Of a DNA stretch of 64,000 bases, positions 5,237 through 55,151 are shown one piece after another; position 1 is the first letter of the stretch; each line of letters starts with the position of its first letter. The position numbers were made by a program, and so were the translations under genes. The notes under the pieces are model-generated. The model was not told where the DNA came from. It worked only from the letters and a program-made list of their open reading frames with translations, and did no database searches. This DNA comes from a virus. The DNA is taken from IMG/VR virus record IMGVR_UViG_3300000553_000005, positions 75,817 to 139,816 of that record. The stretch is one strand, 5' to 3'.

Positions 5237-6388
5237 ATGGCTAAGATTTACACGTTGTCAGCAAGAAATTTCCAGTCATGGCGAGAATTTAATCTCCCCA
5301 TGACTGGATTTACGGTTATTATTGGTCCCTCTGATCGGGGTAAATCAGCTATCATTCGTTCCTTGCGTGGAATTTTACGTAATCAAGTAGGGGCCAACCA
5401 TATTACCTACGGAGAAAAAGAAGTATCTGTAAAGTTGTCTTCGATTGATGGAGATGTAAAACTTTCTCGTAATGCTAAAACCACTGCTTATACTGTAAAC
5501 GATGAAGAATATAGTAAGCTAGCGGGTGCGGTCCCCCCTATTGTAGAGGCAATGAAGTTTAATGAGGTAGAAGTTAATGGAGTTAAGCTTGATCCTATTT
5601 TTGCTGGGCAGTTTGATTCTCAATTTATGCTTGATCTTAGTCCAGCCGAGTTAAACTCCATTTTTGGGTTATTTTCTTCTACAGAGAAATTGAATTCCGG
5701 AAAGAAAAATGCCGCTTCTAAGAATCTAGAATTTAATGCTACGGCTAAATTTCTAGCTTCTGAAATCCAAGAAGCTGAAGCTAAGAGTGGCCTACTAGAA
5801 ACCTTAAATGATGAAATGGAACAGCAGAGCCAAGAAATTTTTAAATTAGAAGATTCTTACAACTCTGCATTGACCTCTCTAAATCTTTTAGATCTGTTAA
5901 ACGCTGGTCAAAAGAGAAAAAGACTCTTGAAAAAGGCAGTCGGCTTTCCCCTACCATTTACTGAAGTATTAGTTAACACTTTAAATTCTGGTAGAAAATT
6001 GGTTCAATATACTAGAAGGAAGCAAAATCTCGAAACGATCAAAAAAGCTGCTTTAATAGACATTCCTTTTGGAAAAATTTTAGAACAGCAGTTTTTGATC
6101 ATCACTAAATTAATAAAAACTAAAAAACTTATCCAAAGAGTAGCGGCTTACAAACAGCTACCTATGGATCCAATTCAGAACGAACTTAATCCTCTTTTCT
6201 CTCTTGTCAGCAAATTGACTACTTTTTCCAAATTGAATAAAAGTGTCATCAATAGGAAATTGGAATTGGATCTAAGTATTAAACAAATAACCGAAATCAC
6301 CAAACAGCTTGATGATTTACAAGGTAAGAGTATTCAGTGTCCTAAGTGTGGGCACTTTTTCACTGGAGTCACCCATGGGCATGAATGA
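5237..6388 (+). CDS. SbcC/Rad50-like ATPase, N-terminal half only, ending at the zinc hook
   Basis: NFQS, Walker A GPSDRGKS, Q-loop, coiled coil, terminal CPKC; no ABC signature or Walker B. Confidence 0.8.
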   Translation: MAKIYTLSARNFQSWREFNLPMTGFTVIIGPSDRGKSAIIRSLRGILRNQVGANHITYGEKEVSVKLSSIDGDVKLSRNAKTTAYTVNDEEYSKLAGAVPPIVEAMKFNEVEVNGVKLDPIFAGQFDSQFMLDLSPAELNSIFGLFSSTEKLNSGKKNAASKNLEFNATAKFLASEIQEAEAKSGLLETLNDEMEQQSQEIFKLEDSYNSALTSLNLLDLLNAGQKRKRLLKKAVGFPLPFTEVLVNTLNSGRKLVQYTRRKQNLETIKKAALIDIPFGKILEQQFLIITKLIKTKKLIQRVAAYKQLPMDPIQNELNPLFSLVSKLTTFSKLNKSVINRKLELDLSIKQITEITKQLDDLQGKSIQCPKCGHFFTGVTHGHE

Positions 6389-6665
6389 AGATATTGCTGA
6401 ATTGAATAAGAGGCTTTCCTCCTTGGCTAAGACCCAAGATGAAGCTAAGAAAATGTTAGCCGTAGAGGAACACAAGCTTGGAGAGCTTACTACCTCTTTG
6501 GAAGCTGAGGGTTATGATGTGGCAAATATGACAGAGGAACAGATCGCTGCCTTGGTTGTAGAATTAACTGATAAGTTTCATTCAACTAAGGAAACGATTG
6601 AAGATAAACTTTCTGAAGTGGAAAAGCTATTCGCCAAGTTAGAAGAAATTAATCAGAAATCCTAA
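6375..6665 (+). CDS. Small coiled-coil protein within the Rad50/Mre11 locus
   Basis: GGAG RBS before ATG 6375; heptad-like composition. Confidence 0.6.
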   Translation: MGMNEDIAELNKRLSSLAKTQDEAKKMLAVEEHKLGELTTSLEAEGYDVANMTEEQIAALVVELTDKFHSTKETIEDKLSEVEKLFAKLEEINQKS

Positions 6666-7675
6666 TGAAACCGAAAATTGTCAAACTACCTTGGGAGAAA
6701 GTGACCTTTACTTGGATCACTGATATCCATCTATCTGCCATTCCTCCTGGTAAGCGTTCCCCTGATTACGAAGATCAGATGTTCAGCAAACTAGAATTTG
6801 TTAAAAATTTAACCACCAGTAGAGAAGCGGTGTGTTTGTGCGGTGGAGATATTTTTCATGTAAAGGGACCAAAAAGTTCTGCGAATCCTCTTCGTATGAT
6901 CAATCGACTCATTGGCTTAATTAAAACTTATCCTCTAGGCAAATGGTTTTCTTGTATTGGTAACCACGATATTCAATATGATCGAATGGACACAGTGACA
7001 AATCAACCTATCGGAGTGCTAATTGAATCTAATGTTCTCCATCCGATTAATTGGGAGCCTGTAATTTTTACCAATAAAAATGAATCAGTTAAAGTTCTAG
7101 TGGAATCTTTTGACTATGCGGAGGGAGCAGAAACTTGTGCCGCTATTAAGGCGGCTGGGATGCGCCCAGAGGGTATCGATTATCGTATTGCTATAGTTCA
7201 TGCCAGTGGAAGTCCAGGCGACTCTAGGGACAGTTTTGGTTCATGGATGATCGGCTACAATCAATTGAAGAACGAGGATTTTGATCTCATCCTGTGGGGT
7301 CATGACCATTCTAGATTGGAAACTATGAGAGTCGGCAACGTCACCCATATTCATCTAGGAGCTTTGTCTAGAGCCGCTCTGACTGAAACTGAAATTACTC
7401 GTAAGATCACCGTCCCGATCTTAACCTTTACTCCAGAAAAAGCCAGTATCAAAGAGATAGATGTTCCTGTTCTCCCTGCTGAACAAATTTTTAGGAAAGA
7501 GGATAAAGTCATTGAGAAAATTGATGAAGATAATGCCGAAGTTAAGAAATTTTTCAACGCTATGAACGATTCTGTGGATGGCATTACCAGCGAGAATCCG
7601 ATTGAAATCATTGAAGTTTTGTGTGAAAAAGACAGTAAGCTGTCTTCTCTTATAAAGGATTTGTGTGAATACTGA
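6665..7675 (+). CDS. Mre11/SbcD-like nuclease
   Basis: TDIH, GGDIF, GNHD, GHDH motifs; adjacent to Rad50-like gene. Confidence 0.85.
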   Translation: MKPKIVKLPWEKVTFTWITDIHLSAIPPGKRSPDYEDQMFSKLEFVKNLTTSREAVCLCGGDIFHVKGPKSSANPLRMINRLIGLIKTYPLGKWFSCIGNHDIQYDRMDTVTNQPIGVLIESNVLHPINWEPVIFTNKNESVKVLVESFDYAEGAETCAAIKAAGMRPEGIDYRIAIVHASGSPGDSRDSFGSWMIGYNQLKNEDFDLILWGHDHSRLETMRVGNVTHIHLGALSRAALTETEITRKITVPILTFTPEKASIKEIDVPVLPAEQIFRKEDKVIEKIDEDNAEVKKFFNAMNDSVDGITSENPIEIIEVLCEKDSKLSSLIKDLCEY

Positions 7676-50028: not shown

Positions 50029-51144
50029 ATGCTAGAGGTACAGAAATTTCTTTTGTCCAATACTTTATCGGACCTTAAGGAAAAGTATGCCATCAATTAT
50101 AGGGTGGGTGATATAGAAAGTTTGGTTAGTTTAAATTACAACCAGATTGAGTCTCCTATGGGAGAGAAGATTGTGCAGGAATGCCGACAGCTAATTCTGG
50201 AACTTGATACTTGGAGGGTAGTGTCTATAGCCCTAGACAAATTTTTCAATTACGCAGAACAGAAGTCCCCTGAGTTTGATTGGTCTAGCTTTAAGACTTA
50301 TGAAAAGATTGATGGTTCTCTGATCTCGTTTTTTCACTATAATGGTCAGTGGTATTGTGCTACTCGCTCTGTCCCTGGAGCTAACACTCCAGTTGATGAG
50401 ACTGGTATGACTTTTAAGGATCTGGTCCTTCTTACTTTGAAGGACATGGGGACTTCCTGGGAGGGATTAACCTCTTACATGGAGCCTGGATACACTTATA
50501 TTTGTGAGCTTACTTCTGAAGAGAATAGAGTTGTTTGCCAGTATAATGAGCGTAAATTAACTCTCCTAGCTATTCGTTCTATTCATGAACCTTTTTTCAA
50601 AGAAAATAATTTGGAAATTTGGGAAGGCTATAATCAAGATTTTCCTCTGCCTCTTGTTACTCGTTATGATGGGTTTTCCAAGGAAGCTATCCTGGCTGAA
50701 GTGCAGGAGCGTAACCCCACTGAGCATGAAGGTTATGTGCTGGTGGATAAGAACTTCAATCGGGTTAAGATAAAGAGTAATGCTTACTGCTTAATGAGTT
50801 ATCAACGTGACGGTTTGGGTAAGTCTAACCGTGCCCGACTGGAACTGATCTTCTCTGACAAGGTGGATGACGTTATTGGTCTTCTGCCTAAGTTCGTGCA
50901 GGAGAAGATTCTTTCTCTCCAGACCGCTCTAAATAACCTCGTTCAGAGTATTAATCAGACGTACGCTGAAATAAAGAATATTGAATCACAGAAGGGCTTC
51001 GCTGCCGAAGCTATCAAGTATCGCTATTCGGCTGCACTATTCGCTCTCAGAGGTGGTCGTATCACGGACGCTCTGGAGTGGCTCAAGAGGGCTTCGGTCA
51101 AGAGTGTGCTGGGTTGGTTGCAGGTTGATGAGGAGGAAGAATAA
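50029..51144 (+). CDS. T4 Rnl1-like RNA ligase
   Basis: KFFN, EKIDGS, ATRS, ELTS..NRVV, EGYV and RVKIKS..Y. Confidence 0.92.
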   Translation: MLEVQKFLLSNTLSDLKEKYAINYRVGDIESLVSLNYNQIESPMGEKIVQECRQLILELDTWRVVSIALDKFFNYAEQKSPEFDWSSFKTYEKIDGSLISFFHYNGQWYCATRSVPGANTPVDETGMTFKDLVLLTLKDMGTSWEGLTSYMEPGYTYICELTSEENRVVCQYNERKLTLLAIRSIHEPFFKENNLEIWEGYNQDFPLPLVTRYDGFSKEAILAEVQERNPTEHEGYVLVDKNFNRVKIKSNAYCLMSYQRDGLGKSNRARLELIFSDKVDDVIGLLPKFVQEKILSLQTALNNLVQSINQTYAEIKNIESQKGFAAEAIKYRYSAALFALRGGRITDALEWLKRASVKSVLGWLQVDEEEE

Positions 51145-51772: not shown

Positions 51773-52021
51773 ATGAAATACTTCCTAGCTATCGCCGCTG
51801 TTCTAGCTCTTACAGCTTGCACAGACGCTCAACGTGCCAAGATTACTTCCGTTGGTTCAGCCCATCATGTCCAGCTTTACTCAGGTGGTAAGCTAATTGG
51901 CGAATGGGATTCTACTGGTGCTGTGACCAATGAAGAACATTCTGATGGTTTTGTCTTTGTGGACGCGAAGACCCATAAGAATATTGAGGTTGCGGGTCAG
52001 ATTATCATCACTCAAGAATAA
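51773..52021 (+). CDS. Phage lipoprotein
   Basis: Signal peptide with lipobox LTAC; AGGAG RBS. Confidence 0.75.
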   Translation: MKYFLAIAAVLALTACTDAQRAKITSVGSAHHVQLYSGGKLIGEWDSTGAVTNEEHSDGFVFVDAKTHKNIEVAGQIIITQE

Positions 52022-52070
52022 ATTTTTTGCAAGTGAACAAATTTTTGAAATTTCAGTATTAAGATAGAGT

Positions 52071-52181
52071 AGGGCCAAGGATAACAAAAGAACACGCAGT
52101 TGTTGTTACCTCCTTAAAGCAGTACGAAGTTGCAGTTGTCATTTTCAAGCGAAGCACATTAAGATTAAACTTCTTGGCCCT
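52071..52181 (+). ncRNA. Stem-closed RNA unit A (possible Y-like RNA)
   Basis: AGGGCCAAGGA/TTCTTGGCCCT 11-bp closing stem just after the AGTATTA motif. Confidence 0.55.
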
Positions 52182-52191
52182 TCTTTGACAG

Positions 52192-52299
52192 TAGACGCAA
52201 TTCAGCGACATTCCTATTTATGATGCTGAGAGGAGGGGTGGTCGAACCCTCAAAGATAGTTTCCCATTTCGGGTTAGTACCTTCGACCGAAAGCGTCTA
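52192..52299 (+). ncRNA. RNA unit B (divergent repeat member with pseudoknot)
   Basis: TAGACGC/GCGTCTA stem; GAGGG/CCCTC hairpin whose loop GGTCGAA pairs with TTCGACC. Confidence 0.65.
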
Positions 52300-52312
52300 G
52301 TTTTTGTTTTAC

Positions 52313-52385
52313 CCTCTAATTCACGGCAGTCCGTAGAGAGTACGGTGAGAGAAGTCGCCCAAAAAAGGCGAAGCGACATTAGAGG
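52313..52385 (+). ncRNA. RNA unit C
   Basis: CCTCTAAT/ATTAGAGG stem enclosing CCGTA/TACGG and TCGCC/GGCGA hairpins. Confidence 0.55.
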
Positions 52386-52395
52386 TTATTGACAG

Positions 52396-52748
52396 AAGGC
52401 ACACACCAGCAACCCAACCCTTTGACAGTGAGTTAGAGCCCACTCACACTAATAAAAAGCTCAAAAGGTGCCTTGTATTTTTTGTTTTACAGGTTTGTGT
52501 GATCCTGTTCAAATCACATTCACTATTCTTGAGACACACACCAGCAACCCAATCGTAGGGGAAACTCTACATCGTATAGTTAAGCCGCAGTGAGACTTAA
52601 CAAACAGGTTTGTGCGATCCTGTTCAAATCGCTCAAAGGTGTCTCGCCTTTTGTCGATAAGACACACACCAGCAACCCAAAATCTTACAAGGTTACTTGT
52701 ACCGAGTGGTTGGATACGCCACGTTAACTTGTGTCCAAAAGGTGTCTT
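52396..52748 (+). repeat. Three repeat RNA units D (52396-52474), E (52531-52645) and F (52659-52748)
   Basis: Invariant CACACACCAGCAACCCAA; covarying 7-bp closing stems; variable pseudoknot interiors. Confidence 0.85.
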
Positions 52749-52789
52749 GCTTTTTGTCCCATCGTGGGACCATTCATAGGAGAACGACA

Positions 52790-54253
52790 ATGACCAACCA
52801 GCTAATCGCCGCCCTCAAGACTTCACAGAACGTGACCTTCACTGAAAATGGTGCTGTGTCTAATGAAACTACGTTTAGTGATATTCTCGATCTGTTTTAT
52901 CACGCCCCTGCTCGTAGGGGTCAGGATAACACCGACCTCTTCAAGAAGGCGATGGCCGAAGATCATCAGACTGCGGTTCGTGCGTTGTTCTACATTCGTG
53001 ACATTCGTGGTGGACAGGGTGAGCGTGAAACGTTCCGCCAGGGACTTCGTTTCCTCCATGCCAACTACCCCGCTATTTTCAATGCGGTTATCTCTCTGGT
53101 GCCTGAGTATGGCCGTTGGGATGACGTTATTGAATACGTGCATGACAAGGGTGTACAGCAGCTTGTGGCTACCCAGCTATCGGCTGACTCCATTTCTGAC
53201 AAGTCTGTCTCTCTTTTGGCTAAGTGGATGCCTTCGGTGAACACTTCCAGCAAGAAGACCAAGGCTCTGGCCCACAAGTGGCTCAAGGTGCTTGGCCTGA
53301 CTGAGCGTGAGTATCGTAAGGTACTGTCTCGTCTTCGCGCTAGGACCGATGTTACTGAGGTCAAAATGTCTGCTCGTACCTGGTCTGCCATTAACTACTC
53401 TAGGGTAGCTTCTAAGGCCAGCTTGCGCTATCGCACTGCTTTCCACAAGCACGATGGCTCCCGCTACACCAGCTTCCTTGAGGCTGCTGTCAAGGGCGAG
53501 GTGAAGATCAACTCTGCCACTCTCTACCCTTACGATCTGACTGGGAAGTATCTTGGTTTCGGTATTTTCGGCTCCAATGGTACCCTGGACATGACCGTTG
53601 AGGCTCAGTGGAAGCAGCTTCCTAACTATTGCGCTACTGACACTAACGCTCTAGTGGTCTGCGATACCTCTGGCTCCATGTATGGTGGACTTCCCGGTGC
53701 CCCCTCTCCTATCTCTGTAGCTGTGTCTCTGGCACTCTACATCTCCGAAAGGAACCAGGGTGCTTTCAAGGATCACTTCATCACTTTCTCCGACCAGCCC
53801 AAGCTCCAGCGCATCAAGGGTACCACTCTGTTCGATAGGTGCAACTCCCTGAAGCAAGCCAATTGGGGTATGAACACCAATCTTCAGGGTGTGTTCGATA
53901 CCATTCTGTCCACTGCTGTTCGTGGTCGCATCCCCCAGGCTGAGATGCCTTCGGCTCTCTTCATCGTGTCGGATATGGAGTTTGACTCCTGCTGCGATAC
54001 TCATACTAACTTTGATCACATCAAAGCTAAGTATGCTGCGGCTGGCTACACCATGCCCAAGCTGGTGTTCTGGAACGTGAACTCGCGCAATATGCAGACT
54101 CCCGTTACCATGGACGAGAAGGGAACCTATCTAGTTTCGGGTTGCTCCCCCACCATCTTTGCCAAGGCCATCAATACTCAGGCTACTACACCCATACAGA
54201 TGATGCTGGAAACATTAAATGGCCCTCGCTACGAGAAGATTGTAGTTGCTTAA
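52790..54253 (+). CDS. DUF2828-family protein (TROVE/Ro60-like helical domain plus vWA)
   Basis: TENGA, RDIRGGQGER, YGRWDD, LAKWMPS, LYPYD, DTSGSM, SDMEFD and VFWNV; AGGAG RBS. Confidence 0.88.
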   Translation: MTNQLIAALKTSQNVTFTENGAVSNETTFSDILDLFYHAPARRGQDNTDLFKKAMAEDHQTAVRALFYIRDIRGGQGERETFRQGLRFLHANYPAIFNAVISLVPEYGRWDDVIEYVHDKGVQQLVATQLSADSISDKSVSLLAKWMPSVNTSSKKTKALAHKWLKVLGLTEREYRKVLSRLRARTDVTEVKMSARTWSAINYSRVASKASLRYRTAFHKHDGSRYTSFLEAAVKGEVKINSATLYPYDLTGKYLGFGIFGSNGTLDMTVEAQWKQLPNYCATDTNALVVCDTSGSMYGGLPGAPSPISVAVSLALYISERNQGAFKDHFITFSDQPKLQRIKGTTLFDRCNSLKQANWGMNTNLQGVFDTILSTAVRGRIPQAEMPSALFIVSDMEFDSCCDTHTNFDHIKAKYAAAGYTMPKLVFWNVNSRNMQTPVTMDEKGTYLVSGCSPTIFAKAINTQATTPIQMMLETLNGPRYEKIVVA

Positions 54254-54725: not shown

Positions 54726-55151
54726 ATGCTAATCAAGAAACAAACCCCTGCCTCAGTAAATCTTTTTGGAGGTGGCTCTCCTTTCTCCTGGAACCCTTTT
54801 GGTTCATGGGATCAGTCTTTTGGGAATTTCTTTTCCGAATTGGAGCCAACTTGTTGGGATCAAGCCGAATCAGAAGACAGCGTGACTGTATCTTTAGTAG
54901 TTCCTGGGTTTAAACAAGAAGAACTAGATATCGAAGTTCATCATCGTGGTTTTTCTGTCAAGGGCAAATCAACAGTCTATTCTCGTAGTTATGCTATTGA
55001 TAGGACTTTGGGCTGTAAGATTGTTCCTGATAGCACTCAAGCAATTTTAGAGAATGGAATTTTAACTTTAACTTTTAAGAAGGAATCGGCTAGAAAAACT
55101 GAAGCGGTTATTAAAGTTAAGGCTCACTCTCCTAATGAGTTAGCCGGTTAA
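54726..55151 (+). CDS. Small heat-shock protein (Hsp20/alpha-crystallin)
   Basis: VPGFKQEELDIEV and AILENGILTL. Confidence 0.85.
   Translation: MLIKKQTPASVNLFGGGSPFSWNPFGSWDQSFGNFFSELEPTCWDQAESEDSVTVSLVVPGFKQEELDIEVHHRGFSVKGKSTVYSRSYAIDRTLGCKIVPDSTQAILENGILTLTFKKESARKTEAVIKVKAHSPNELAG

What the first reader, a model, noticed from the sequence alone, without database searches (positions are those of the whole stretch)
52489..52632. Duplicated 29-nt pseudoknot with a perfect compensatory double change
Seen: ACAGGTTTGTGTGATCCTGTTCAAATCAC (52489-52517, in a linker) and ACAGGTTTGTGCGATCCTGTTCAAATCGC (52604-52632, inside unit E) differ at just two positions. These convert a U-A pair to a C-G pair in the loop-tail helix. 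This is internal evidence of selection on RNA structure, and suggests cargo modules move independently of the handle.
Basis: seen in the sequence. Interest (0 to 1): 0.7.

Follow-up and report, generated by a model that had tools for sequence, protein, structure and literature searches.

The report
Twin pseudoknot in phage Y-like RNAs
Two almost identical 29-base RNA folds lie just before and inside one unit of a six-unit small-RNA array next to a Ro60-like ring-protein gene of a freshwater jumbo phage. Their only two differences swap one base pair for another, and related phages keep the same helix through matching changes, so the fold is real but its job is untested.

Summary
52489-52517 and 52604-52632 differ only at positions 12 (U/C) and 28 (A/G), which changes a U-A pair to C-G in the helix GYGAU/AUCRC. 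For this pair of copies alone, chance gives p of about 0.01-0.04.

Three related phage lineages (Ro60-like protein 77-86% identical) carry the same two copies at the same two places. Across the 8 copies, pair 12/28 is always Watson-Crick (5 C-G, 3 U-A). Pair 10/30 also swaps U-A for C-G. A competing hairpin shows no covariation.

Stem 1 (CAGG/CCUG) is nearly invariant, so the pseudoknot is supported only indirectly. Neighbouring units D and F have the same hairpin-plus-loop-to-tail layout with heavy covariation in stem 2. Stem 1 also differs compensatorily between unit types.

The setting is a tandem array of stem-closed RNAs sharing a CAGCAA "handle", upstream of a DUF2828 protein whose model matches Ro60, and next to an Rnl1 RNA ligase. 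This scan has already reported this handle-RNA/Ro60-like pairing in other phage genomes. The 29-nt element itself is new and confined to this clade.

The duplication is ancestral and fixed in position, so recent cargo mobility is not supported. Function is inferred, not shown.

The parts
52489..52519 (+). Pseudoknot copy 1 (the 'linker' copy). Stem 1 5' strand is ACAGG 52489-52493 and L1 is UUU 52494-52496. Stem 2 5' strand is GUGUGAU 52497-52503 and stem 1 3' strand is CCUGU 52504-52508. L3 is UCAA 52509-52512 and stem 2 3' strand is AUCACAU 52513-52519.
   Evidence: Sequence. The 7-bp stem 2 is the minimum-free-energy fold of 52485-52530. Orthologues exist in L060, L142 and L162.
52604..52634 (+). 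Pseudoknot copy 2, inside unit E. Stem 1 is ACAGG 52604-52608 with CCUGU 52619-52623. Stem 2 core is GCGAU 52614-52618 with AUCGC 52628-52632, plus G52612-C52634 across a U x U mismatch. L3 is UCAA 52624-52627.
52531..52645 (+). Unit E. Closing stem is GAGACAC 52531-52537 with GUGUCUC 52639-52645. The 5' handle is ACACCAGCAACCCAA. Hairpin 1 carries a GAAA tetraloop (52555-52570). Hairpin 2 carries the conserved loop CCGCAGU (52579-52601). Then come copy 2 and the A-rich 3' handle.
   Evidence: The closing stem and both hairpins covary among the 4 lineages.
52396..52474 (+). Unit D, with the same handle. Its own pseudoknot has stem 1 GUGAGU 52428-52433 with ACUCAC 52442-52447, and stem 2 GAGC 52436-52439 with GCUC 52459-52462.
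   Evidence: Stem 2 is GAGC/GCUC here, GGCA/UGCC in L060 and UGGC/GCCA in L142.
52659..52748 (+). Unit F, with the same handle. Its own pseudoknot has stem 1 GUGG 52706-52709 with CCAC 52719-52722, and stem 2 GGAUAC 52712-52717 with GUGUCC 52731-52736.
   Evidence: Stem 2 is paired in 24/24 cells, and 4 of 6 pairs changed on both sides.
52073..52380 (+). Units A (52073-52180), B (52192-52299, closing stem UAGACGC/GCGUCUA with CAGCGAC) and C (52313-52380, present only in this phage). These are the upstream part of the same array.
52790..54253 (+). Gene for a Ro60-like protein (DUF2828 + DUF7788, the latter a vWA domain with a DxSxS MIDAS motif). It is the presumed protein partner of the array RNAs.
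   Evidence: Pfam. AlphaFold2 model with pLDDT 91.9. Foldseek top hits are Ro60 structures 1yvr, 2i91, 9l5y (phage phiLo) and 2nvo, E 1e-9 to 3e-7, over the full length. D292, S294 and S296 are invariant.
50029..51144 (+). T4 Rnl1-type RNA ligase gene. It lies upstream of the array in every close relative examined.
   Evidence: Pfam PF09511, E 1.2e-20. Synteny is shown.

Best explanation
The 29-nt element is a compact, H-type-pseudoknot-forming RNA module. Stem 1 is (A)CAGG/CCUG(U), 4-5 bp. L1 is 3-5 nt and U-rich. Stem 2 is GYGAU/AUCRC, extendable to 7 bp. No nucleotide separates stem 2's 5' strand from stem 1's 3' strand. L3 is 4-6 nt and A-rich.

It is one of a family of such modules. Each sits at the 3' side of a unit in a co-oriented tandem array of stem-closed small RNAs. 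Each unit has a closing helix, a CAGCAA motif, variable cargo, an A-rich strand and then the 3' strand of the closing helix. These units are most likely Y-RNA-like partners of the Ro60-like DUF2828 protein encoded immediately downstream.

The two copies are old paralogues that flank the 5' and 3' strands of unit E's closing helix. Purifying selection keeps almost every base, and stem 2 tolerates only pair-preserving changes.

Inferred, not shown: the fold acts as a rigid docking or recognition surface (cargo) that the Ro60-like ring presents to another factor, such as the neighbouring Rnl1 ligase or a host ribonuclease. This would parallel the way Y-RNA modules tether PNPase to Ro60.

Shown: the sequence duplication, conserved positions, covariation of stem 2, the + strand, and the Ro60-like fold of the neighbouring protein. 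Inferred: simultaneous formation of both stems, RNA-protein binding, and function.
For: (1) Duplicate and pair swap.
(2) Orthologous copies occur in three further lineages at the same two positions.
(3) Stem 2 counts: 45/49 cells paired. Pair 12/28 is C-G 5 and U-A 3 with no mispair. Pair 10/30 is C-G 2 and U-A 2. The covariation score is 0.185 against 0.132 in shuffles (1/500 reach it) and at most 0.068 for slid registers.
(4) Loops L1 and L3 vary in length and sequence while both stems stay. L060 copy 1 has L1 UUUUGGC and L3 UAUAAA.
(5) The competing hairpin GGUUUG/CAAAUC has no double changes and 3 mispairs. U8 to C is not compensated.
(6) Loop-to-tail complementarity beats shuffled loops in most copies (p 0.001-0.06). 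Among 118 chance matches to the stem-1-plus-loop pattern in viral contigs, only 5 had a full 5-bp stem 2.
(7) Units D and F share the architecture. F stem 2 is paired in 24/24 cells with 4/6 pairs changed on both sides. D stem 2 is 12/12 with 4/4 changed. D stem 1 has one U-A to G-C swap.
(8) Stem 1 differs compensatorily between unit types: CAGG/CCUG, GAGG/CCUC, GUGG/CCAC, GUGAG/CUCAC.
(9) G-U pairs in stems and closing helices fit only the + strand.
(10) Ro60-like fold of the adjacent protein.
(11) The handle motif is enriched on the gene strand around DUF2828 genes. There are 88 units on the gene strand against 8 on the opposite strand in 96 loci, about 8-fold above control loci.
(12) Loop lengths fit textbook H-type geometry (established knowledge, not a computation here).
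Against: Stem 1 shows no covariation within the element. Its outermost pair is lost or wobbled in 3 of 8 copies. The L162 lineage carries AAGG, an A x G mismatch, in copy 2 in all the assemblies of that lineage that were read.

Only four lineages (8 copies, 2-3 independent double changes) are available, so statistical power is low. The shuffle control does not correct for relatedness (tool caveat).

Gene conversion between the copies could inflate apparent conservation.

No pseudoknot-capable energy model was available. RNAfold and RNAalifold choose either stem 1 or stem 2 alone.

In copy 2 the loop can also pair further into the A-rich handle (UUUG/CAAA), which would compete with stem 1.

No expression, processing or binding data exist. 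The 65%-identity group has a recognisably related module, but its stem 2 is not significant (p 0.06-0.4).
Confidence: 0.55

Rival explanations
1. It is a plain hairpin, not a pseudoknot. Only stem 2 (5-7 bp) forms and presents a conserved 9-nt loop, CCUGUUCAA. The conserved upstream ACAGG would be a separate single-stranded recognition site or part of another contact.
For: All direct covariation is in stem 2. The stem 2 hairpin is the minimum-free-energy fold for copy 1 with flanks, at -7.1 kcal/mol against -4.4 for stem 1 alone. Stem 1 has an uncompensated A x G mismatch in L162 copy 2. The loop contains GUUCAAAUC, a T-loop-like string that could be the functional surface.
Against: ACAGG and CCUG are both nearly invariant and complementary in 7 of 8 copies, while the loops between them vary in length. 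Three other module types keep a different but still complementary stem 1 in the same place. In unit D, stem 1 is the strong hairpin and the covarying stem 2 is the loop-tail helix, which cannot be drawn without a pseudoknot.
Confidence: 0.28
2. It is a conformational switch. Stem 1, stem 2 and the hairpin GGUUUG/CAAAUC are mutually exclusive states, and a ligand or protein selects among them, as in a riboswitch.
For: Three alternative helices of 5-6 bp can be drawn in 29 nt. RNAfold picks different ones for the two copies. The size resembles the smallest pseudoknot aptamers.
Against: No Rfam riboswitch or other family matched, even at E up to 10. The third helix has no covariation and has uncompensated mismatches. 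Copy 2 is buried inside a stem-closed unit and copy 1 lies about 270 nt upstream of the next start codon, with two more RNA units in between. So there is no expression platform.
Confidence: 0.08
3. It is chance or neutral. A recent duplication, or gene conversion, left two copies that happen to differ at two pairable positions. There would be no selection on structure.
For: For the two copies alone the chance probability is 1-4%, not negligible after a reader has searched a 64-kb window.
Against: The duplication is shared by four lineages whose flanking array has diverged to 71% mean column identity and has gained or lost whole units. The pair changed again independently in L060 copy 1, and a second pair covaries.
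Confidence: 0.04
4. It is a DNA-level element: two 29-bp direct repeats 115 bp apart serving as binding sites for a phage DNA-binding protein (operator or iteron).
For: They are direct repeats at fixed spacing in an intergenic region.
Against: Compensatory changes and strand-specific G-U pairs are expected for RNA, not for a DNA site. The elements are embedded in units whose long-range closing helices covary. Spacing between the copies varies among relatives.
Confidence: 0.03

Closest known systems
Ro60 (Rsr)-Y RNA ribonucleoproteins: bacterial YrlA/YrlB and Yrn1 (Chen et al. 2014, PMC4201824), and Thermus phage phiLo Ro60 with Yrl1/Yrl2 (PMC12135203)
   Same: A Ro60-fold ring protein with a vWA/MIDAS domain is encoded next to same-strand tandem small RNAs. 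Each RNA has a 5'-3' closing stem, a short conserved motif in the adjoining internal loop, and a variable module. There is a link to RNA repair genes; here it is an Rnl1 ligase. Jumbo phages are already known to carry ROT/TROVE proteins (PMC7824862).
   Different: The protein belongs to Pfam DUF2828/DUF7788, not TROVE, and has no sequence-level match in the PDB. The RNA motif is CAGCAA rather than GNCGAA/CGAA. No Rfam family matches. No tRNA-like domain was detected. There are six units rather than one or two. The cargo in D, E and F is a small pseudoknot. One pseudoknot copy lies outside any handle.
Minimal H-type pseudoknots, such as the preQ1-I riboswitch aptamer (about 34 nt) and luteoviral frameshifting pseudoknots (about 28 nt). 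This comparison is from established knowledge.
   Same: Size is 29-31 nt. There are two short coaxially stackable stems with no junction nucleotide, a short pyrimidine-rich L1, and an A-rich L3 long enough to cross a 5-bp stem 1.
   Different: No Rfam hit. It is not in a 5' UTR next to a ribosome-binding site and not after a slippery site in an ORF. It occurs as cargo inside a stem-closed small RNA and again 10-13 nt upstream of that RNA.
The handle-RNA arrays beside DUF2828 genes reported earlier by this scan in other phage genomes (notes e1-5459882, e1-5645212, e1-5378739, e1-272486)
   Same: The handle is the same (clamp helix plus ACAGCAA-type motif), the protein partner is the same, and the layout is a tandem array.
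   Different: Those notes describe cargo resembling tRNA or rRNA pieces. Here the cargo of D, E and F ends in lineage-specific pseudoknots, and the 29-nt element was found only in this clade of four lineages.

Membership tests
H-type RNA pseudoknot | A helix between the hairpin loop and the downstream tail (stem 2), maintained in evolution | tested here: met
   8 copies. 45/49 cells paired. Pairs 12/28 and 10/30 changed on both sides. Slid registers reach at most 53% paired.
H-type RNA pseudoknot | The first helix (stem 1), maintained in evolution | tested here: inconclusive
   CAGG/CCUG is complementary in 7 of 8 copies but invariant, with one A x G mismatch. Covariation appears only when paralogous unit types are compared: CAGG/CCUG, GAGG/CCUC, GUGG/CCAC.
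H-type RNA pseudoknot | Loop lengths sterically compatible with both stems at once | tested here: met
   L1 is 3-5 nt across a 5-7-bp stem 2. L3 is 4-6 nt across a 4-5-bp stem 1. The junction has 0 nt. This was judged against textbook geometry, not modelled.
H-type RNA pseudoknot | Both stems formed simultaneously in the RNA | not testable with these tools
   No pseudoknot-capable folding or probing data. RNAfold and RNAalifold return one stem or the other.
Bacterial/phage Y RNA (YrlA-type; Chen et al. 2014) | Encoded within about 4 kb of a Ro60 orthologue and on the same strand | tested here: met
   The array ends 42 nt upstream of the Ro60-fold gene on the same strand. The protein is Ro60-like by predicted fold only.
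Bacterial/phage Y RNA (YrlA-type; Chen et al. 2014) | GNCGAAN0-1G motif near the 5' end | tested here: not met
   Units B, D, E and F carry CAGCAAC or CAGCGAC at that place. This is an analogous position but a different motif.
Bacterial/phage Y RNA (YrlA-type; Chen et al. 2014) | tRNA-like domain, or a match to the Rfam covariance model | tested here: not met
   ARAGORN found 0 genes. There were no Rfam matches at gathering score in the window, nor at E up to 10 on the + strand of 51900-52900.
Ro60/TROVE protein (for the neighbouring gene) | HEAT-repeat ring plus vWA domain with a MIDAS motif | tested here: met
   The AlphaFold2 model has pLDDT 91.9 and pTM 0.90. Full-length Foldseek matches to Ro60 structures have E 1.4e-9 to 3e-7 and TM 0.5-0.58. 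The motif D292-x-S294-x-S296 is invariant in 57 homologues.
Ro60/TROVE protein (for the neighbouring gene) | Sequence-level membership (Pfam TROVE, or a sequence match to solved Ro60) | tested here: not met
   Pfam gives DUF2828 and DUF7788 only. A profile search of PDB sequences gave no hit at E up to 1.
preQ1-I or other small pseudoknot riboswitches | Match to the family covariance model | tested here: not met
   No such match at E up to 10.

The most novel reading that the evidence does not exclude
The pseudoknots, including the twin 29-nt element, and the other cargo of this array are structural mimics of translation-machinery RNA. They would be displayed on a Ro60-like ring as decoys or repair guides. 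They would intercept host ribonuclease toxins that cut 16S rRNA or tRNA, or recruit the adjacent Rnl1 ligase to mend such cuts. The two identical pseudoknots flanking unit E's closing helix would form a bivalent docking site.
Probability: 0.12. Interest if true: 0.8.

Novelty: new variant of a known kind. Interest (0 to 1): 0.4.

Why it matters
The finding is a small piece of a larger picture. It gives internal, sequence-only evidence that the cargo of an undescribed branch of Ro60/Y-RNA-like particles in large phages is folded RNA under selection, and that at least three units end in compact pseudoknots placed next to the protein-binding handle. If the Ro60-like protein does bind these RNAs, the pseudoknots are the best candidates for the surfaces that recruit other factors. 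That makes the question "what do phage Ro60-like particles act on?" testable with 30-nt RNAs. The twin arrangement around one closing helix is unusual and suggests a bivalent site. Taken alone, the compensatory pair is ordinary evidence for an ordinary kind of RNA structure.

Tried and rejected
(1) Rfam: there was no match at gathering scores in the whole window. At E up to 10 in 51900-52900 there were only two meaningless minus-strand hits. No tRNA or tmRNA was found.

(2) Phage GenBank blastn of the array gave no match.

(3) Three pattern scans of IMG/VR gave no hits or chance hits only. These were the exact 29-mer with Y/R, the 15-nt handle core, and a stem-1-plus-loop pattern. Most hits were in coding DNA. 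L270 looked similar but lies inside a gene.

(4) A protein-guided search of IMG/VR with the single protein found nothing. With an alignment it found only relatives at 58% identity or less, without the element.

(5) The metagenome scan gave 80 loci, mostly at 30-50% identity. The handle is there but the 29-nt element is not.

(6) Further assemblies of the L162 lineage and of this phage added no new variants. Several ENA samples had no DNA file.

(7) The alternative hairpin GGUUUG/CAAAUC was rejected.

(8) The 10-bp extended stem 2 of copy 2 into the A-rich handle was rejected, because U8 to C is not compensated in L142 and L162.

(9) The AGC/GCU pairing between handle and tail proposed by RNAalifold is only 3 bp, is broken in L142 and conflicts with stem 2.

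(10) Mimicry of 16S rRNA by the 29-mer itself is not established. The resemblance is to the 5' end (GUUUG...GAUCCUG) or to the helix 24 stem (CAAACAGG...CCUG). Whole-16S local alignments are not significant, the flanking bases are not conserved in relatives, and the loop differs.

(11) A T-loop or anticodon-loop reading of CCUGUUCAAAUC fits the string in 6 of 8 copies, but no matching stem exists. It was left as a lead.

(12) Small ORFs overlapping the region are broken by non-triplet indels in relatives.

(13) No sigma-70 promoter or intrinsic terminator was found above background inside the array.

(14) A literature search for 'DUF2828' returned five unrelated papers.

Full report
OBSERVATION

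They differ only at position 12 (U in copy 1, C in copy 2) and position 28 (A in copy 1, G in copy 2). No further copy exists in the window at up to 3 mismatches, and none in the rest of the 139.8-kb virus record. That record is estimated at 49% complete, so this is a jumbo phage.

Nine of ten independent assemblies of the same phage from other samples carry an identical 774-nt intergenic region. The tenth differs only at its contig end. The sequence is therefore not an artefact.

Positions 12 and 28 face each other in GYGAU/AUCRC, so U-A becomes C-G. I enumerated all helices of 4 bp or more that the 29-mer can form. Two random substitutions would produce such a Watson-Crick-to-Watson-Crick swap with probability 0.014 (uniform) to 0.042 (transitions only). 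This is suggestive but not enough on its own.

SETTING

The element lies in a 768-nt gene-free gap (52022-52789). On one side is a small ORF downstream of a T4 Rnl1-type RNA ligase gene (50029-51144, PF09511). On the other is a 487-aa DUF2828 + DUF7788 protein gene (52790-54253).

An AlphaFold2 model of that protein has pLDDT 91.9. Over its full length it matches Ro60 structures: Xenopus 1yvr and 2i91, human 9nen, Thermus phage phiLo 9l5y, and Deinococcus Rsr 2nvo. E-values are 1.4e-9 to 3e-7 and TM-scores 0.5-0.58. Weaker hits are vWA domains only. A DxSxS MIDAS motif is invariant in 57 homologues. At sequence level it is not a TROVE-family member.

The gap is an array of stem-closed units. 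B, D, E and F share a handle. It consists of a closing helix of 7 bp or more whose sequence covaries, then 1-4 nt, then CAGCAA(Y) or CAGCGAC, then cargo, then an A-rich strand, then the 3' strand of the helix and a U-rich spacer.

The same handle flanks DUF2828 genes at only 35-45% protein identity. There are 88 units on the gene strand against 8 on the other strand in 96 loci, roughly 8-fold above unrelated viral loci. It has no Rfam family. I found no paper on it; 'DUF2828' returns five unrelated papers.

This scan's earlier notes report the same RNA-protein pairing in several other phage genomes. The published parallels are bacterial and phage Ro60 with Y RNAs. Those have a 5'-3' stem, a GNCGAA/CGAA motif in the adjoining bulge and a variable module. 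They are encoded beside the protein on the same strand (PMC4201824; PMC12135203). ROT/TROVE proteins have been noted in jumbo phages as part of RNA repair systems (PMC7824862).

RELATIVES OF THE 29-NT ELEMENT

Three further lineages carry an orthologous array:
- L060/L061, with the Ro60-like protein 86% identical.
- L142, at 77%.
- L162-L165 and L284-L287, at 77%.

A profile search finds the element only in these lineages. It is always present twice and always at the same two places. Copy 1 lies 10-13 nt upstream of unit E's closing helix. Copy 2 lies inside E, immediately before the A-rich 3' handle.

Copy 1 keeps this position even in the L162 lineage, where unit D is absent and unit B is the upstream neighbour. 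Unit C exists only in the window's phage. So units are gained and lost, but the duplication of the 29-mer is ancestral and positionally stable.

The U-A (copy 1) versus C-G (copy 2) difference is itself old. Copy 1 has U-A in three lineages and copy 2 has C-G in all four. L060 copy 1 switched independently to C-G.

STRUCTURE TESTS

On the alignment of the 8 copies (A2), the pseudoknot model gives 91.7% of cells paired.

Stem 2, drawn as 7 bp:
- Pair 12/28 is C-G 5 and U-A 3, with no mispair.
- Pair 10/30 is C-G 2, U-A 2 and mispaired 4. The mispairs are mostly the U x U of copy 2.
- Two pairs show G-C/G-U alternation, which fixes the transcribed strand as +.
- The covariation score exceeds 499 of 500 column shuffles and all slid registers. 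The shuffle control does not correct for relatedness, which is the tool's own caveat.

Loops L1 and L3 change in length and sequence. L060 copy 1 has UUUUGGC and UAUAAA, and L142 and L162 copy 1 have UCAAU, while both stems persist.

The competing hairpin GGUUUG/CAAAUC has no double changes and three uncompensated mispairs. Loop-to-tail complementarity is better than for shuffled loops in most copies (p 0.001-0.06). It is rare (5 of 118) among chance matches to the stem-1-plus-loop pattern elsewhere.

Stem 1 (CAGG/CCUG) is the weak point. It is invariant, its outer A-U pair is not conserved, and L162 copy 2 has AAGG (A x G) in every assembly of that lineage that was read.

Indirect support for stem 1 comes from the neighbouring units:
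- Unit D has a strong 5-6-bp hairpin (GUGAGU/ACUCAC here, GUGAGG/CCUCAC in L060). Its loop pairs with the tail just before the A-rich handle through 4 bp that differ completely among lineages: GAGC/GCUC, GGCA/UGCC, UGGC/GCCA.
- Unit F has GUGG/CCAC. Its loop pairs with the tail by 6 bp, paired in 24/24 cells, with four pairs changed on both sides.
- The architecture is the same as in E: stem 1, a short L1, stem 2's 5' strand abutting stem 1's 3' strand, an A-rich L3, and stem 2's 3' strand abutting the handle.
- The stem 1 sequences of the unit types differ compensatorily: CAGG/CCUG, GUGG/CCAC, GUGAG/CUCAC, and GAGG/CCUC in the E-like unit of the 65%-identity group L062/L143/L144/L145. In that distant group stem 2 is not statistically supported.

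Loop lengths fit standard H-type geometry. No pseudoknot-capable energy model was available. RNAfold and RNAalifold return stem 1 or stem 2 alone.

The rest of unit E is also a conserved fold. The closing helix covaries (A-U to C-G). Hairpin 1 carries a GAAA tetraloop on a covarying stem. Hairpin 2 carries a conserved CCGCAGU loop on a covarying stem.

WHAT IT MOST LIKELY IS AND DOES

Shown:
- An anciently duplicated, strongly conserved RNA element on the + strand, whose loop-tail helix is maintained by compensatory change.
- It is embedded in a structured-RNA array beside a Ro60-fold protein gene and an RNA ligase gene.

Inferred, with my estimated probabilities:
- Both stems form together, giving a true H-type pseudoknot: about 55-60%.
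- The array RNAs are Y-RNA-like partners of the DUF2828 protein: about 70%.
- By analogy with Y-RNA modules that tether PNPase to Ro60 (PMC4201824, PMC12135203), the pseudoknots are rigid docking surfaces presented by the particle to another factor.

Because the two copies flank the 5' and 3' strands of one closing helix, they would end up side by side. That could make a bivalent site. This last point is speculation.

CONSIDERED AND NOT ESTABLISHED

The loop-L3 string GUUCAAAUC looks like a tRNA T-loop. The element also shares short strings with 16S rRNA. These are the 5'-end GUUUG...GAUCCUG and the helix 24 stem CAAACAGG...CCUG. Whole-16S alignments are not significant, and the flanks are not conserved in relatives.

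Separately, other cargo in the array shares more 8-mers than expected with the last 50 nt of E. coli 16S rRNA. The strings are ACCUCCUUA in unit A, CGUAGGGGAA in hairpin 1 of E, and GGUUGGAU in F. L060's unit F also carries ACAAGGUAAC. The window shares 6 such 8-mers against 0.46 expected (2 of 2000 shuffles reach this) and L060 shares 5 against 0.39. The signal is weaker in L162 and absent in L142. This agrees with earlier notes of this scan that such arrays carry look-alikes of translation RNAs. It is a lead, not a result.

VERDICT

The pseudoknot is the best but unproven reading. The mobility inference is not supported.

The element is a lineage-specific cargo module of a Y-RNA-like family. 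This scan has met that family before on other DNA, and I found no published description of it. The finding itself is a modest, solid detail within that larger and more interesting system.

Noticed in passing
window 52192-52748; loci L062-L161: A 'handle' flanks DUF2828 (Ro60-like) genes in very diverse metagenomic and viral loci, often as 2-5 tandem units. It consists of a covarying closing helix, CAGCAA, cargo, an A-rich strand and the 3' strand of the helix. There are 88 units on the gene strand against 8 on the opposite strand in 96 loci. It has no Rfam family.
   Followed up: partly
window 52428-52462 (unit D) and 52706-52736 (unit F): Units D and F each end in their own H-type pseudoknot. 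The loop-tail helix is completely re-coded between related phages but always paired (12/12 and 24/24 cells).
   Followed up: yes
window 52108-52116, 52554-52563, 52708-52715; L060:2896-2905: Cargo pieces match the last 50 nt of 16S rRNA: ACCUCCUUA in unit A, CGUAGGGGAA in hairpin 1 of E, GGUUGGAU in F, and ACAAGGUAAC in L060's unit F. The window shares 6 8-mers against 0.46 expected (p about 0.001). This may be mimicry of the 16S 3' minor domain.
   Followed up: partly
L142:1439-1450; L162:1436-1446: In the L142 lineage, the unit F pseudoknot loop contains UGGUAGUCCACG, identical to E. coli 16S positions 798-809. In the L162 lineage it contains UGGUAGUCCAC, matching positions 798-808. The orthologous loop in the window resembles a different 16S segment, so the meaning is unclear.
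   Followed up: no
window 52313-52380; alignment A5: Unit C (closing stem CCUCUAAU/AUUAGAGG) exists only in this phage, and unit D is missing in the L162 lineage. Whole units are gained and lost while the order of the rest is kept.
   Followed up: partly
window 52555-52601: Unit E hairpin 1 has a GAAA tetraloop on a stem that covaries in all four lineages. Hairpin 2 has an invariant loop core, CCGCAGU. Together with the closing helix and the pseudoknot this makes a four-way, cloverleaf-like layout.
   Followed up: partly
L060:1869-2324 and 5886-7470; L162:3094-4464; window 54726-55151: Gene neighbours vary around a constant Rnl1-array-Ro60-like core. L060 has a PTH2 peptidyl-tRNA hydrolase before the array. 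L060 and L162 have a GAF-PAS-histidine kinase-receiver protein after the gene. The window has an Hsp20 instead.
   Followed up: no
window 52036-52072 and the equivalent places in L060, L142, L162, L062, L143, L145: A conserved motif, TTTTGAAA...CAGTATTAAG (AGTATWA), lies just upstream of the first unit in all relatives. It may be a phage promoter. The sigma-70 consensus scan did not call it.
   Followed up: no
L145:1418-1440: A 65%-identity relative has ACAGGTTTTGTGTGGATC, which resembles the 5' half of the 29-mer. It sits between its array and the Ro60-like gene, and the 3' half is missing. It may be a decayed copy.
   Followed up: no
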